Assembly (NCBI RefSeq): GCF_046105845.1
Contig: NZ_CP151004.1
Origin: Escherichia coli
Lineage (GTDB): Bacteria > Pseudomonadota > Gammaproteobacteria > Enterobacterales > Enterobacteriaceae
DNA: 64,000 nt
Direction: 5' to 3' (one strand)
Shown: positions 4,186 to 37,201 of the stretch, one piece after another
How positions within the stretch are numbered: the first letter of the stretch is position 1
How the letters are laid out: each line of letters begins with the position of its first letter
Notes under the pieces: model-generated
Database searches by the model: none
What the model was told of the DNA's origin: nothing
Seen by the model: the letters and a program-made list of their open reading frames with translations, nothing else
Made by a program: the position numbers and the translations under genes

Positions 4186-5142
4186 TCAATACCCCATGTT
4201 TTTCTTCTTCTCTAACTCTTCTTTTGCGGTATCAGGCAGGTAAAGGGTGGACTTGGTCAGGGTCAGCTTTTCAGGCATGGTGCCGTCTTTTTTATATTTC
4301 TCCAGCGCATCAAAAGCGGGGCCTGCCATGTTCGGCGTCAGTTCAACGCTGGCGTTCGCTTCGCCATCAATCATCGCTTTGTAGATGTCCGGCACGCCGT
4401 CGATAGAGCCTGTCAGGATATCTTTGCCCGGTTTCAGGCCCGCTTCTTTAATTGCCTGAATTGCACCAATCACCATGTCATCGTTATGGGCGTAAACCAT
4501 GCAGATGTTTTTGCCGTTGTTTTCCGCTTTGATAAAGCTCTCCATGACTTCTTTGCCTTTACTGCGGGTGAAGTCACCTGACTGCGAGCGGATAATTTTG
4601 ATATTTGGCGCATTCTTTATGGCTTCGGCAAAGCCTTTCTTACGGTCAATGGCGACGCTGGCCCCAACAGTGCCCTGCAGCTCCACCACGTTGCATGGTT
4701 TGCCATTCACTTCTTTTACCAGCCAGTCACCAATCAACTTGCCTTCGAGGATGTTGTCGGCAGTGACGGTGGTCATATAGAGAGACTTGTCTTTCACATC
4801 GATGGAACGATCGAGCAAGAAGACCGGGATTTCGGCATCTTTCGCCTCTTTTAATACCGGCTCCCAACCGGTCGCTACCACTGGAGCGATAAAGATCGCA
4901 TCCACCCCTTGTGCAACGAAGGAACGTACCGCTTTAATCTGGTTTTCCTGCTTTTGTTGACCATCGGCGATTTTCAGTGTGATACCGCGTTTTTCGGCTT
5001 CACTTTTCGCCACGTTGGTTTCAGCGGCACGCCAGCCGGATTCCGATCCGACCTGCGAAAATCCAACGGTTAATGGAGCGGCCAACGCCATAGACGACAT
5101 GGCTGCCGAGACTGCAGAGACTACAAGTAAGCGTTTCCACAT
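4186..5142 (-). CDS. ytfQ: periplasmic sugar-binding protein of ABC transporter
   Basis: 318-aa ORF with signal peptide (MWKRLLVVSAVSAAMSSMALA) and periplasmic binding-protein fold signature; operon context. Confidence 0.88.
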   Translation of the reverse strand: MWKRLLVVSAVSAAMSSMALAAPLTVGFSQVGSESGWRAAETNVAKSEAEKRGITLKIADGQQKQENQIKAVRSFVAQGVDAIFIAPVVATGWEPVLKEAKDAEIPVFLLDRSIDVKDKSLYMTTVTADNILEGKLIGDWLVKEVNGKPCNVVELQGTVGASVAIDRKKGFAEAIKNAPNIKIIRSQSGDFTRSKGKEVMESFIKAENNGKNICMVYAHNDDMVIGAIQAIKEAGLKPGKDILTGSIDGVPDIYKAMIDGEANASVELTPNMAGPAFDALEKYKKDGTMPEKLTLTKSTLYLPDTAKEELEKKKNMGY

Positions 5143-5384
5143 AGGGTTGTCCTCGTCGGGGTAATTATTATTGGTGAAAAGATGTTCGCGAAAAAACTAT
5201 AGACAATTCGTTATGTAACGGATTGCGTTACATCACACTTCAAAAAAGTAAATAAAACGTTAATCACAAGTTTGTAATCGCTTTCATCTCACTATGAAAA
5301 ATGCGGCTACGGTTATGGATTTTCCTGCTCTTTAAACCACCTTAAAACTGGCTAAAAAGGAAAATGAAGAAGAAAACAAGCGAA

Positions 5385-5451: not shown

Positions 5452-5982
5452 ATGAGCTTACTCAACGTCCCTGCGGGTAAAGATCTGCCGGAAGACATCT
5501 ACGTTGTTATTGAGATCCCGGCTAACGCAGATCCGATCAAATACGAAATCGACAAAGAGAGCGGCGCACTGTTCGTTGACCGCTTCATGTCCACCGCGAT
5601 GTTCTATCCGTGCAACTACGGTTACATCAACCACACCCTGTCTCTGGACGGTGACCCGGTTGACGTACTGGTCCCGACTCCGTACCCGCTGCAGCCGGGT
5701 TCTGTGATCCGTTGCCGTCCGGTTGGCGTTCTGAAAATGACCGACGAAGCCGGTGAAGATGCGAAACTGGTTGCGGTTCCGCACAGCAAGCTGAGCAAAG
5801 AATACGATCACATTAAAGACGTTAACGATCTGCCTGAACTGCTGAAAGCACAGATCGCTCACTTCTTCGAGCACTACAAAGACCTCGAAAAAGGCAAGTG
5901 GGTGAAAGTTGAAGGCTGGGAAAACGCAGAAGCCGCTAAAGCTGAAATCGTTGCCTCCTTCGAGCGCGCAAAGAATAAATAA
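5452..5982 (+). CDS. ppa: inorganic pyrophosphatase
   Basis: 176-aa ORF; sequence recognisable as E. coli PPase (…[29 protein letters not shown]…). Confidence 0.95.
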
Positions 5983-6000
5983 GTTCTTCTAGCGCAATAA

Positions 6001-6036
6001 CCCTGAACGCCGGGCTTCGGTTAGTAAGGGTTTTTT
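6001..6036 (+). terminator. putative rho-independent terminator downstream of ppa
   Basis: GC-rich stem region CCCTGAACGCCGGGCTTCGG…AAGGG followed by TTTTTT. Confidence 0.5.
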
Positions 6037-6060
6037 ATGCCCGCGATAAATAAACACGCC

Positions 6061-6411
6061 TTATTCCACCACCGCCTGCAAACGTAATAACGCCTCTTCC
6101 ACCACTTCACCCGCAGCCAGACCAATACGCTTTGCCAGCCGGGCGCGTAGATCCATCATCCGCACCTGATTCACCAGCACCACGCCGTGCACATCGCCTT
6201 CTTCGCAATGTAAAGGAACGCTGAATCCTGCATAACGGGCAAAATTTCCGCCCTGCGTAATGGGGGCCACCAGCGTCATTCCCAGTTGATTAAAGGCTTG
6301 AACGGAGAGCACAAGCGCAGGTCGACCAGCACCTTGCTGTTCATGGCCGCTTGCTGGATCAAAGCCAACCAGCACAATGTCTCCCCGTTCAAATTCACTT
6401 TTCTTTACCAT
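6061..6411 (-). CDS. chpB: MazF/PemK-family endoribonuclease toxin ChpBK
   Basis: 116-aa ORF (MVKKSEFERGDIVLVGFDPASGHEQ…); start overlaps stop of upstream antitoxin gene. Confidence 0.9.
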   Translation of the reverse strand: MVKKSEFERGDIVLVGFDPASGHEQQGAGRPALVLSVQAFNQLGMTLVAPITQGGNFARYAGFSVPLHCEEGDVHGVVLVNQVRMMDLRARLAKRIGLAAGEVVEEALLRLQAVVE

Positions 6412-6656
6412 ATTTCGTCACCCGCAGGGGTGGATTTACCCCAGACATCCTGCTCGCTAAGTTCCGTGGCGTTCATGTCACACTGTGCCAGCAGTTCATC
6501 AAGCGAGTAGCGCCTGGAGATGGGTGTCAGAATCAGTTGATTGTTGCTCACTTGCGCCTCCACGCTCTGCCCCGGCCGTAAGTTAAGTTCTTTCATCACA
6601 ACATTAGGAATGACCATACCTGAACTATTCCCCCATCTTTTTATGGTAATACGCAT
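6405..6656 (-). CDS. chpS: MazE/AbrB-type antitoxin ChpBI
   Basis: 83-aa product from internal Met (MRITIKRWGNSSGMVIPN…); SD AAGGAGG upstream; classic antitoxin-toxin gene pair. Confidence 0.88.
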   Translation of the reverse strand: MRITIKRWGNSSGMVIPNVVMKELNLRPGQSVEAQVSNNQLILTPISRRYSLDELLAQCDMNATELSEQDVWGKSTPAGDEIW

Positions 6657-6669
6657 CTGCACCTCCTTA

Positions 6670-6688
6670 AGTTATACAAAGTATAACT
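6670..6688. promoter_or_regulatory. 8-3-8 inverted repeat AGTTATACaaaGTATAACT immediately upstream of chpS; candidate autoregulatory operator
   Basis: Perfect palindrome a few bp upstream of the chpS SD; TA operons are typically autorepressed at such sites. Confidence 0.5.
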
Positions 6689-6815
6689 CACGGTGCTACA
6701 GGAAACGTTTTACCCCTGCGCATTTGTGAACGCCAGCAGAGTTTTTTATGCGTTAACAGATATGGAAAGCGGCTCGGAGAGAAAAGCAAAAGGTGAGGGA
6801 ATTACAAAACAGAAT

Positions 6816-6856
6816 GCGAGTCGTCTCGCAAAAAACAACGCCACCCGAAGGTGGCG
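6816..6856 (-). terminator. rho-independent terminator downstream of ytfP (tandem hairpins)
   Basis: On minus strand GCCACCttcgGGTGGC followed by GTTGTTTTTTG, then GCGAGacgaCTCGC. Confidence 0.75.
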
Positions 6857-6861
6857 TATGG

Positions 6862-7203
6862 TTACTTATCCCTGTCTAACCAGTCGCCGCTTTCAATTAG
6901 CTTTAATCCATCGACGGGTCGTTGATAAACGTACATCCATGCACTCCCGTACGGCGTCTGAATCAACTGGCGCGCGTATTCACCGCCCCTGGTGCGCAAG
7001 GCATCAAGTTCGGCCAGCGTGGCGTTGTCAATACGATAAACTTCACCGTGTACTGTTCCGTTCCCCGGAACTGCGCCTGGATAGTGGCCCAGGCTATACA
7101 ACTGGTAGTTATCGATACTGAAATCGCCCAGTAACTGGGCATTGGTCATCCAGTGACTGTTGCCTTGTTTGTGGCGTAAACTGCCGTAGACAAATATTCG
7201 CAT
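6862..7203 (-). CDS. ytfP: gamma-glutamylcyclotransferase-like (AIG2-like) protein
   Basis: 113-aa ORF (MRIFVYGSLRHKQGNSHWM…) with YGSL motif; directly downstream of tamB. Confidence 0.85.
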   Translation of the reverse strand: MRIFVYGSLRHKQGNSHWMTNAQLLGDFSIDNYQLYSLGHYPGAVPGNGTVHGEVYRIDNATLAELDALRTRGGEYARQLIQTPYGSAWMYVYQRPVDGLKLIESGDWLDRDK

Positions 7204-7205
7204 TG

Positions 7206-12757
<5,552 letters not shown>

Positions 12758-36904: not shown

Positions 36905-37024
36905 TCACTCTAATTTTCAAAAGTAATCACAACAAGATTATTTATGATTAAATGTGACGCGACCCGCAAATAATTCCACATGGATAGAGTGGGATTCACA
37001 CAACGAAATAATTATTCATTTAAA

Positions 37025-37042
37025 TTCATTTAGTTAAATGAA
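37025..37042. promoter_or_regulatory. inverted repeat TTCATTTAgtTAAATGAA in ulaA-ulaG divergent control region; candidate UlaR (DeoR-type) operator
   Basis: Perfect 8-2-8 palindrome in the AT-rich intergenic region between the divergent ula transcription units. Confidence 0.5.
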
Positions 37043-37201
37043 TTACACATTCCATTAAATCTTTCCACACTCAAAATCAACAACAACTTCCCTGGCAAAA
37101 AGTCAAAAAATGGTCATTGCCTTCCTGAAAAAATAGTGTCAGGATTAATCAAAACCAATCACATGTTGATTCGAATTGAACTATCATGAAGGTAAATGGC
37201 G

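What the first reader, a model, noticed from the sequence alone, without database searches (positions are those of the whole stretch)
6405..6688. chpBS toxin-antitoxin module with a perfect 8-3-8 palindrome at its promoter
The chpS-chpB pair shows the classic type II TA layout with overlapping stop and start codons. AGTTATACaaaGTATAACT sits directly upstream of the chpS SD (about 6670..6688) and is a strong candidate for the antitoxin-toxin autoregulatory operator. TA loci are of interest for persistence and phage defence.
Basis: partly seen in the sequence, partly recalled or inferred. Interest (0 to 1): 0.4.

Follow-up and report, generated by a model that had tools for sequence, protein, structure and literature searches.

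The report
chpSB toxin-antitoxin promoter operator palindrome
The palindrome is real and is almost certainly the DNA site where the ChpS antitoxin, helped by the ChpB toxin, shuts off its own promoter; this is the expected arrangement for a long-known E. coli toxin-antitoxin pair, so the finding is sound but ordinary.

Summary
On the minus strand lie chpS (6656-6405, 83 aa) and chpB (6411-6061, 116 aa), whose ORFs overlap by 7 nt. AGTTATAC-aaa-GTATAACT sits at 6670-6688, one base upstream of the SD AAGGAGGTG.

A palindrome of this size is not rare: the window holds 12 against 6.6 expected. Its weight comes from homology and conservation.

- It has the same half-sites (GTTATA/TATAAC) and the same position next to GGAGGTG as parD region I of plasmid R1, which Kis and Kid-Kis footprint and whose left half carries the -10.
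- 55 PemI/Kis-like loci from many phyla carry GTTATA-N6-TATAAC.
- All 16 ChpS-clade loci (Escherichia, Enterobacter, Lelliottia, Leclercia, Trabulsiella) carry an N5 version, while their flanks diverge.
- The left half reads TATACT, a near-consensus -10, so the start site is inferred inside the right arm.

So this is an autorepression operator overlapping the promoter. ChpS binding was not tested here.

Side findings:
- a conserved CRP-S-like site upstream at 6815-6830;
- two flanking half-site-like heptamers about 30 bp either side of the dyad;
- a ChpS-clade-specific tract that could mask the SD in longer transcripts, without real covariation.

The module is already known. Interest is low.

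The parts
6405..6656 (-). chpS (antitoxin ChpS, 83 aa, AbrB/MazE/SpoVT-type N-terminal DNA-binding domain)
   Evidence: ORF list. NCBIfam equivalog NF008463, 192.8 bits against a cut-off of 101. Pfam PF04014 precomputed. Annotated chpS in RefSeq E. coli.
6061..6411 (-). chpB (endoribonuclease toxin ChpB, 116 aa); its ORF overlaps chpS by 7 nt (ATGGTAA)
   Evidence: ORF list. NCBIfam NF007320, 226.8 bits against 129. PF02452 in orthologous loci. Junction sequence.
6670..6688 (.). Perfect 8-3-8 palindrome AGTTATAC-N3-GTATAACT. The family-type core is GTTATA-N5-TATAAC at 6671-6687. Inferred ChpS / ChpS-ChpB operator.
   Evidence: Homologous to parD region I GTTATATTTAAATATAAC. Conserved in 16 of 16 ChpS-clade loci and, as an N6 version, in 55 PemI/Kis-like loci.
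6680..6685 (-). Inferred -10 hexamer TATACT (left half-site plus first spacer base). The start site is inferred at about 6673/6672, giving a leader of about 17 nt.
   Evidence: Inference. In parD the left half of region I carries the -10. TATACT is present in 15 of 16 N5 loci, and TATATT or TATACT in 46 of 54 N6 loci. It is the only positionally conserved sigma-70-like pair in a position-weight-matrix scan. No start-site data were found.
6703..6708 (-). Position of the -35 hexamer for TATACT with a 17-nt spacer; ACGTTT is a poor match in E. coli
   Evidence: Orthologues have ATGACA, ATGCCA or ACGTCA at 16-17 nt. The region overlaps the conserved block GTAAAACG.
6660..6668 (-). Shine-Dalgarno AAGGAGGTG of chpS
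   Evidence: Sequence. GGAGG is invariant in the ChpS-clade alignment. parD/pemI shows the same GGAGGTG.
6707..6713 (-). GTAAAAC, an upstream half-site-like heptamer (6 of 7 matches to GTATAAC), centred about 31 bp from the dyad centre. Possible auxiliary site; it overlaps the -35 region.
   Evidence: Position-conserved in Escherichia, Lelliottia, Leclercia and part of Enterobacter. Function is inferred only.
6646..6652 (-). GTATTAC in chpS codons 2-4, a downstream half-site-like heptamer centred about 30 bp from the dyad centre. It is an exact GTATAAC, using the rare Ile codon ATA, in most other genera.
   Evidence: Function is inferred only.
6657..6701 (-). Extended imperfect inverted repeat (21-nt arms) around the palindrome. 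As RNA it forms a hairpin that pairs the SD with a pyrimidine tract in the -35/-10 spacer.
   Evidence: 76% complementary. (-19.4 kcal/mol, z = -5.2). Flank-shuffle test in the ChpS clade against a null control in 42 PemI-like loci. No compensatory covariation.
6815..6830 (-). TGCGAGACGACTCGCA, a perfect CRP-S-type core (TGCGA-N6-TCGCA). Candidate Sxy/CRP site for a separate upstream promoter.
   Evidence: Sequence. The motif definition comes from PMC1635313. It is conserved with a variable N6 at a fixed distance in ChpS-clade loci. A review reports chpSB upregulation on sxy overexpression.
6838..6857 (-). Intrinsic terminator of ytfP (ACGCCACC-TTCG-GGTGGCGT plus a T run), which isolates chpSB from upstream transcription
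   Evidence: Invariant in the alignment.

Best explanation
The 8-3-8 palindrome is the primary autoregulatory operator of the chpSB operon, and it overlaps the core promoter.

Inferred mechanism:
- A ChpS dimer, through its AbrB/MazE-type N-terminal domain, recognises the two half-sites GTTATA and TATAAC.
- ChpB dimers bound to the ChpS C-termini bridge ChpS dimers and strengthen binding. Excess toxin loosens it, as in Kid-Kis.
- The left half-site plus the first spacer base spells the -10 hexamer TATACT, and the start site falls in the right arm. An occupied operator therefore excludes RNA polymerase.
- Loss of labile ChpS derepresses the operon.

Shown here: the sequence, its homology to a footprinted operator, and its conservation. 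Inferred: binding by ChpS and ChpS-ChpB, the -10 and start-site assignment, and the co-repressor role of ChpB.
For: 1. Identity of the genes.

2. Homology to a proven operator. Monti et al. 2007 (PMC1865072) footprinted Kis and Kid-Kis on parD region I, an 18-bp perfect palindrome in the fragment GGATGTTATATTTAAATATAACTTTTATGG. Its left half overlaps the -10. The pemI upstream read in L002 is ...gatGTTATATTTAAATATAACttttatGGAGGTGaagaATG. chpS is ...gtgaGTTATACtttGTATAACttaaGGAGGTGcagATG. The half-sites are the same and so is the placement.

3. Family-wide conservation. GTTATA-N6-TATAAC lies upstream of 55 PemI/Kis-like antitoxin genes from Proteobacteria, Cyanobacteria, Acidobacteriota, Gemmatimonadota and Acidimicrobiia. 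Its distance to the start codon varies from 10 to 60 nt.

4. Antitoxin-operator correlation.
- Antitoxins with the 'LR/KKVGGS' N-terminus pair with the N6 palindrome.
- The 'MRITIKK/RWGNSAGMVIP' ChpS clade pairs with N5 in 16 of 16 loci.
- The 'MEVKVQQWGNS' clade and similar ones have other inverted repeats.

5. In syntenic tamB-ytfP-chpS-chpB loci of five genera the core is invariant or nearly so, while the adjacent spacer diverges.

6. Changes in the core are one-sided and uncompensated: Trabulsiella GTCTAAC, L006 ATATAAC, L096 ATTATAC. That is the pattern of a protein site, not of an RNA stem.

7. The left half is a near-consensus -10: TATACT in 15 of 16 N5 loci, TATATT or TATACT in 46 of 54 N6 loci, and 24 of 54 with a TGn extension. 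It is the only positionally conserved promoter-like pair.

8. The 68-bp control region is identical in 2818 of 3097 chpSB-bearing complete E. coli genomes.
Against: - No experiment showing ChpS binding to this site was run here or found in the readable library.
- The spacing is 1 bp shorter (N5) than in the footprinted parD site.
- The ChpS N-terminus is closer to the MazE 'KRWGNS' type than to the Kis 'KRVGGS' type, so the recognition details may differ.
- The -35 for TATACT is poor in E. coli (ACGTTT), and the generic promoter scan found nothing on this strand.
- No start-site data could be retrieved.
- Palindromes of this size are common in the window.
Confidence: 0.85

Rival explanations
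1. The palindrome acts mainly, or additionally, at the RNA level. In transcripts that start upstream of 6701, the 21-nt-arm inverted repeat folds into a hairpin that buries the chpS SD. That would set translation or stability of chpS relative to chpB. This reading does not exclude the operator role.
For: - The inverted repeat extends to 6657-6677 / 6681-6701.
- The RNA fold is -19.4 kcal/mol, z = -5.2, with the SD paired; in a 121-nt context the helix extends over the AUG.
- In 15 ChpS-clade sequences the native 5' flank pairs with linker, SD and pre-AUG better than shuffled flanks in most lineages (Fisher chi-square 88.5, df 30, sequences not independent).
- The same test on 42 PemI-like loci is null (mean z = -0.2).
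- Cognate flanks beat swapped flanks weakly (p = 0.026).
- A conserved CRP-S-like site about 149 bp upstream of the inferred start site implies that a longer transcript exists under Sxy induction.
Against: - The alignment-based count shows no covariation: score 0.144 against 0.151 in shuffles, and the pairs opposite the SD vary only C to U on one side.
- Core changes are uncompensated.
- If the main promoter uses TATACT, the main mRNA lacks the 5' arm.
- In the wider family the palindrome can lie 30-60 nt from the SD.
- There is no Rfam match.
- Hairpin strength does not track CRP-S quality across lineages.
- No upstream start site has been mapped.
Confidence: 0.2
2. The palindrome is the site of an unrelated host regulator, not ChpS, that happens to sit at this promoter.
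For: Only that no direct ChpS binding data were obtained. The intergenic region also holds several other conserved blocks (CTGYAAY, CGAGCCGCTTTCC, GCTGG) that imply additional factors.
Against: The same half-sites travel with PemI/Kis-type antitoxin genes on plasmids and chromosomes of unrelated phyla, where no host factor is shared. The motif type also switches with the antitoxin's N-terminal sequence. Kis itself footprints the homologous site.
Confidence: 0.04
3. A chance AT-rich palindrome with no function.
For: 12 palindromes of this class occur in the window against 6.6 expected, so the class is common.
Against: Position and sequence are conserved across five genera while the flanks diverge. 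The site is homologous to a footprinted operator. It is identical in 2818 of 3097 chpSB-bearing E. coli genomes.
Confidence: 0.01

Closest known systems
parD (kis-kid) / pemIK operator-promoter region I of plasmids R1/R100 (Monti et al. 2007, PMC1865072)
   Same: - Homologous antitoxin and toxin (ChpS is 36-39% identical to PemI).
- Half-sites GTTATA/TATAAC.
- A perfect palindrome that contains the -10 in its left half.
- The palindrome lies a few bases upstream of GGAGGTG and the start codon.
   Different: - The centre is N5 (17 bp) instead of N6 (18 bp).
- The -10 is TATACT without the TGn extension.
- No clear region II palindrome lies 33 bp upstream; there are only single half-site-like heptamers about 30 bp on either side.
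- Binding is proven for Kis and only inferred for ChpS.
mazEF (chpA) promoter 'alternating palindrome' bound by MazE/MazE-MazF (as described in PMC3879964)
   Same: An E. coli chromosomal paralogue with an AbrB-fold antitoxin. The ChpS N-terminus shares the 'KRWGNS' motif. Autorepression works through palindromic DNA that overlaps the promoter.
   Different: The operator sequence and architecture differ: three-part alternating arms and two promoters. A ChpS query scores well below the MazE equivalog cut-off (34.8 bits against 113).
AbrB-linked MazF-family upstream motif (Chopra et al. 2013, PMC3879964)
   Same: That survey reported a conserved repeat or palindrome motif directly upstream of 76 of 79 AbrB-type antitoxin modules, coinciding with parD region I. 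The family-wide conservation seen here is the same phenomenon.
   Different: In the passages read, the survey was not seen to single out the chpSB site, the N5 against N6 split, or the link to the antitoxin's N-terminal motif.
hicAB two-promoter arrangement (P1 CRP-Sxy dependent, P2 antitoxin-repressed), as summarised in PMC6957337 and PMC11951105
   Same: A CRP-S-type site lies upstream of a TA operon that also has a proximal palindromic operator. chpSB is reported to be Sxy-induced.
   Different: No upstream promoter or start site has been mapped for chpSB. The gene order is antitoxin first. The consequence for the toxin/antitoxin ratio is unknown.

Membership tests
Type II TA module of the MazEF / ChpBS / PemIK (Kis-Kid) family | Antitoxin with an AbrB/MazE/SpoVT N-terminal DNA-binding domain | tested here: met
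   NCBIfam ChpS equivalog at 192.8 bits against a cut-off of 101. PF04014. Nearest PDB relatives are MazE chains 1MVF, 1UB4 and 2MRN.
Type II TA module of the MazEF / ChpBS / PemIK (Kis-Kid) family | Toxin of the PemK/MazF fold | tested here: met
   NCBIfam ChpB-family equivalog at 226.8 bits against 129. PF02452 in orthologous loci.
Type II TA module of the MazEF / ChpBS / PemIK (Kis-Kid) family | Antitoxin-first bicistron with coupled or overlapping ORFs | tested here: met
   chpS 6656-6405 and chpB 6411-6061, with a 7-nt overlap ATGGTAA.
Type II TA module of the MazEF / ChpBS / PemIK (Kis-Kid) family | Toxin is a sequence-specific endoribonuclease neutralised by the antitoxin | not testable with these tools
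   Literature only: the ACY/ACD specificity of ChpB is quoted.
parD region-I-type operator | Inverted half-sites GTTATA / TATAAC | tested here: met
parD region-I-type operator | 18-bp element (N6 between the hexamer half-sites) | tested here: not met
   chpS has N5 (17 bp), as do all 16 ChpS-clade loci. 55 PemI-like loci have N6.
parD region-I-type operator | Left half overlaps the -10 of the TA promoter | tested here: inconclusive
   TATACT is present and conserved. No start-site data were available and the -35 is poor in E. coli.
parD region-I-type operator | Second, weaker pseudo-symmetric site (region II) upstream, giving cooperative binding | tested here: inconclusive
   No second palindrome was found. 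Single heptamers GTAAAAC (6707-6713) and GTATTAC (6646-6652) flank the core at about 30 bp.
parD region-I-type operator | Specific binding by the antitoxin dimer, enhanced and tuned by the toxin | not testable with these tools
   Needs EMSA or footprinting. Shown for Kis/Kid only.
CRP-S (Sxy-dependent CRP) site | Core TGCGA-N6-TCGCA with C rather than T at position 6 | tested here: met
   TGCGAGACGACTCGCA at 6830-6815 on the minus strand. Definition. Conserved with 2 or fewer mismatches in 17 of 23 listed sequences, at a fixed distance.
CRP-S (Sxy-dependent CRP) site | Class I position (about -61.5 or further upstream on the same helical face) relative to a start site | tested here: inconclusive
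   The centre is about 149 bp upstream of the inferred proximal start site, which is too far. No convincing sigma-70 hexamers lie at the expected distances.
CRP-S (Sxy-dependent CRP) site | Sxy- and CRP-dependent activation | not testable with these tools
   A review states that chpSB is upregulated on sxy overexpression. The primary paper, PMC2725579, is not held.
SD-sequestering 5' leader hairpin | Stable helix pairing the SD, supported by compensatory changes | tested here: not met
   The helix is predicted. No covariation beyond shuffles, and only a weak cognate-flank effect.
SD-sequestering 5' leader hairpin | Both arms are present in a natural transcript | not testable with these tools
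   No start-site data were retrievable.

The most novel reading that the evidence does not exclude
The chpSB control region may be a roughly 68-bp dyad (6646-6713), not a single palindrome. It would comprise the core operator, two auxiliary half-sites about three helical turns to either side, and a spacer that can pair with the SD.

Two transcript classes would follow. A short leader from the ChpS-repressed proximal promoter would be freely translated. A long leader from an upstream CRP-Sxy promoter would have the chpS SD and AUG buried in a hairpin. That would bias translation toward ChpB and switch the toxin on during the Sxy (competence-like) response.
Probability: 0.1. Interest if true: 0.55.

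Novelty: already known. Interest (0 to 1): 0.2.

Why it matters
chpSB is one of the classic E. coli chromosomal toxin-antitoxin loci, yet I found no paper in the searchable library that maps its operator or promoter. This analysis makes three modest contributions:

1. It gives a precise, testable operator (6670-6688; K-12 positions 4,448,415-4,448,433) and a predicted start site.
2. It shows that the ChpS clade uses a half-site spacing 1 bp shorter than the Kis/PemI family.
3. It flags a conserved CRP-S-like site that could explain the reported Sxy induction.

None of this changes how type II TA regulation is understood.

Tried and rejected
**Start-site data.** I searched for chpS or nearby coordinates in the held supplements of four genome-wide E. 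coli start-site papers and found nothing: PMC3415461, PMC4782308, PMC6131387 and PMC2760140. PMC4161252 has no supplement held as text, and PMC4288677 is not held at all.

**Primary papers.** Sinha 2009 (PMC2725579) and Masuda 1993 (PMC206809) are not held. The cap on papers stopped me reading the MazE-DNA paper.

**Generic scans.**
- The promoter scan found no sigma-70 site on the gene strand.
- Rfam found no match in 5950-7250.
- PADLOC found no defence-system hit for either protein.

**Transcript ends.** I looked at a short Logan contig (P0004, L100) in case its end marked a transcript 5' end. It simply ends inside chpS.

**Other readings considered and rejected.**
- TATAAC in the right arm as the -10: it is not conserved (Trabulsiella has TCTAAC), and the start site would cut the SD.
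- The conserved TGYAAY block as a -10, a -35 or a sigma-54 element for the CRP-S promoter: the distances and invariant bases do not fit.
- TGCGAGACGACTCGCA as a second terminator hairpin, as the scan flagged it: the N6 varies while the half-sites are kept, which is the signature of a protein site.

Full report
**1. What is there**

The window around the finding is an E. coli-type chromosome segment:
- ppa (+, 5452-5982)
- chpB (-, 6411-6061)
- chpS (-, 6656-6405)
- ytfP (-, 7203-6862)
- tamB (-, 10985-7206)

ChpS and ChpB hit their NCBIfam equivalog models far above the cut-offs. RefSeq annotates the same genes in E. coli, including K-12 b4224/b4225.

The two ORFs overlap by 7 nt (ATGGTAA). 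AGTTATACAAAGTATAACT is at exactly 6670-6688 and is unique in the window. On the gene strand the order is AGTTATAC-TTT-GTATAACT, then T, then AAGGAGGTG (the SD), then CAG and ATG.

**2. Is it more than chance?**

The palindrome alone is not. Perfect inverted repeats with arms of 8 bp or more and a spacer of 6 or less occur 12 times in the window, against 6.6 on average in Markov shuffles. The case has to rest on position, homology and conservation.

**3. Homology to a proven operator**

Monti et al. 2007 (PMC1865072) showed by hydroxyl-radical footprinting, EMSA and native mass spectrometry that Kis, and more tightly Kid-Kis, bind two sites in the parD promoter of plasmid R1.
- Region I is an 18-bp perfect palindrome within GGATGTTATATTTAAATATAACTTTTATGG. 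Its left half overlaps the -10.
- Region II, GTTATATTTTTATTAAAC, is weaker and lies 33 bp upstream.

I read the pemI upstream region in a plasmid record (L002)...GTTATATTTAAATATAAC ttttat GGAGGTG aaga ATG. The chpS region is ...GTTATAC ttt GTATAAC ttaa GGAGGTG cag ATG.

The half-sites (GTTATA/TATAAC), the adjoining SD and the distance to the start codon are the same. ChpS is 36-39% identical to PemI-type antitoxins. The chpS palindrome is thus the homologue of parD region I.

**4. Conservation**

A scan of one genome per species with a ChpS/PemI alignment gave 80 loci.
- 55 loci carry GTTATA-N6-TATAAC within 130 nt upstream of the antitoxin start codon. These encode PemI/Kis-like antitoxins with N-terminus xTTxL(R/K)(K/R)VGGS. 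They come from Gamma-, Beta- and Deltaproteobacteria, Pseudanabaena cyanobacteria, Acidobacteriota, Gemmatimonadota and Acidimicrobiia. The distance to the start codon varies from 10 to 60 nt.
- Antitoxins with other N-termini (MEVKVQQWGNSAAIRLP and similar) have different inverted repeats, for example TTGTAGATAC...GTATCTACAA.
- ChpS-clade orthologues (MRITIK(K/R)WGNSAGMVIP) were gathered from Escherichia species, Enterobacter, Lelliottia, Leclercia, Trabulsiella and metagenomes. All lie in the same tamB-ytfP-chpS-chpB synteny. All 16 carry GTTATA-N5-TATAAC, 12-15 nt upstream of the ATG.

In the clade alignment the core and the SD are invariant or nearly so, while the 17-nt stretch just upstream is highly variable. 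The few core changes are one-sided and uncompensated: GTCTAAC in the Trabulsiella group, ATATAAC in L006 and ATTATAC in L096. That is how a protein-binding site behaves, not an RNA stem. Within E. coli the 68-bp control region is identical in 2818 of the 3097 complete genomes that carry the locus.

**5. Promoter**

The left half-site plus the next base reads TATACT, a 5-of-6 match to the -10 consensus.
- The equivalent hexamer is TATATT or TATACT in 46 of 54 non-redundant N6 loci. 24 of these have a TGn extension, and many have a TTGC-type -35 at 16-18 nt.
- In the ChpS clade the only promoter-like pair conserved in position is a -35 (ATGACA, ATGCCA, ACGTCA or ACGTTT), then 16-17 nt, then TATACT.
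- In E. coli the -35 is poor, and the generic scan finds nothing.

By analogy with parD, I infer a start site at about 6673/6672 (K-12 position about 4,448,430) and a leader of about 17 nt. This step is inference. No start-site data could be retrieved.

A start inside the right arm is the expected geometry for an operator that overlaps the -10.

**6. Mechanism proposed**

ChpS dimers bind the two half-sites. ChpB dimers bridge ChpS and raise affinity at balanced ratios, then lower it in toxin excess, as measured for Kid-Kis. Occupancy blocks RNA polymerase at the -10 and +1. Loss of ChpS derepresses the operon.

I put confidence in the operator role at 0.85. The main gap is direct binding data for ChpS. 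The N5 spacing and the MazE-like 'KRWGNS' N-terminus of ChpS mean that recognition details may differ from Kis.

**7. Things beyond the finding**

(a) *Extended inverted repeat.* The repeat extends to 21-nt arms (6657-6677 / 6681-6701). As RNA it would form a -19.4 kcal/mol hairpin that pairs the SD.
- In ChpS-clade lineages the native 5' flank, which is the -35/-10 spacer, pairs with linker, SD and pre-AUG better than shuffled flanks.
- 42 PemI-like loci show no such effect.
- However, an alignment-based count finds no compensatory covariation. Only C/U varies opposite the invariant SD guanines. The cognate-versus-swapped flank test is weak (p = 0.026).
- The 5' arm would be absent from the proximal-promoter mRNA.

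I treat this as an unproven secondary role (about 0.2).

(b) *CRP-S-like site.* TGCGAGACGACTCGCA (6830-6815) is a perfect CRP-S core (TGCGA-N6-TCGCA). It sits just after the ytfP terminator.
- Its half-sites and its distance to the operator are conserved across genera, while the N6 varies.
- A review reports chpSB induction on sxy overexpression.
- Its centre is about 149 bp upstream of the inferred start site. It therefore implies a separate upstream promoter, which I could not locate.
- This resembles the hicAB P1/P2 layout.

(c) *Heptamer cluster.* GTWWWAC heptamers cluster: four lie in 68 bp, against 51 in the whole 64-kb window. The two outside the core are GTAAAAC (6713-6707, overlapping the -35 region) and GTATTAC (chpS codons 2-4).
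- They lie about 31 and 30 bp from the dyad centre.
- They are position-conserved in most lineages.
- The coding copy is an exact GTATAAC, using the rare ATA codon, in most other genera.

They may be auxiliary half-sites comparable to parD region II. This was not tested.

(d) *Loss of the locus.* About 43% of complete E. coli genomes lack chpSB. BL21 keeps the upstream region as far as ...GGGGTAAAACG, followed by a decayed chpB remnant.

**8. Comparison and novelty**

The module is the textbook chpB locus. The operator type is that of parD/pemIK, and a family-wide upstream motif for AbrB-linked MazF modules has been reported (PMC3879964). What I did not find stated in the accessible literature is:
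- the explicit chpSB operator and promoter assignment;
- the N5 against N6 split tied to the antitoxin's N-terminal type;
- the conserved CRP-S-like site.

These are small increments. Rating: already known. Interest: 0.2.

Noticed in passing
window 6815-6830 (minus strand): TGCGAGACGACTCGCA is a perfect CRP-S-type core (TGCGA-N6-TCGCA) immediately downstream of the ytfP terminator. The half-sites and the distance to the operator are conserved across five genera, while the N6 varies. The terminator scan flagged it as a hairpin. It is a likely basis for the reported Sxy induction of chpSB, but no matching promoter was found.
   Followed up: partly
window 6646-6652 and 6707-6713: Two extra half-site-like heptamers lie about 30-31 bp either side of the palindrome centre: GTATTAC in chpS codons 2-4 and GTAAAAC over the -35 region. 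GTWWWAC occurs 4 times in these 68 bp against 51 times in the whole 64-kb window. The coding copy is an exact GTATAAC, using the rare Ile codon ATA, in most other genera.
   Followed up: partly
window 6657-6701 (minus strand): An imperfect 21-nt-arm inverted repeat surrounds the palindrome. As RNA it would bury the chpS SD. A pyrimidine tract opposite the SD is kept in ChpS-clade lineages but not in PemI-like loci. No compensatory covariation was found.
   Followed up: yes
L099 (E. coli BL21-AI) 880-1060, compared with window 6061-6710: E. coli genomes without chpSB (about 43% of complete genomes) are not empty sites. BL21 keeps the ytfP terminator, the CRP-S-like site and the sequence up to ...GGGGTAAAACG, followed by a roughly 200-bp decayed remnant of chpB. 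The operator, chpS and most of chpB are deleted.
   Followed up: partly
window 6405-6656 compared with 6061-6411: ChpB recognition triplets AC[AGU] are twice as dense in chpS (14; 5.6 per 100 nt) as in chpB (10; 2.8 per 100 nt). Two ACU triplets lie inside the palindrome. This is consistent with a published remark that the chpSB transcript has more sites in the antitoxin part.
   Followed up: partly
window 5213-5233: A perfect 8-5-8 palindrome ATGTAACG-gattg-CGTTACAT lies in the intergenic region between the 318-aa periplasmic-binding-protein gene (4186-5142, minus) and ppa. It looks like a LacI-family-type operator.
   Followed up: no
window 37023-37044: A perfect 8-6-8 AT-rich palindrome AATTCATT-tagtta-AATGAATT. 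Its context was not examined.
   Followed up: no
L024, L036, L039, L043, L044, L046, L051, L058 (Pseudomonas and Azotobacter loci); L032, L045: Antitoxins with MEVKVQQWGNSAAIRLP-type or MRTEIKKWGNSAALRLP-type N-termini, paired with ChpB-family toxins, carry different inverted repeats built on GTATCTAC/GTAGATAC rather than GTTATA/TATAAC. Operator type tracks the antitoxin's N-terminal sequence.
   Followed up: partly
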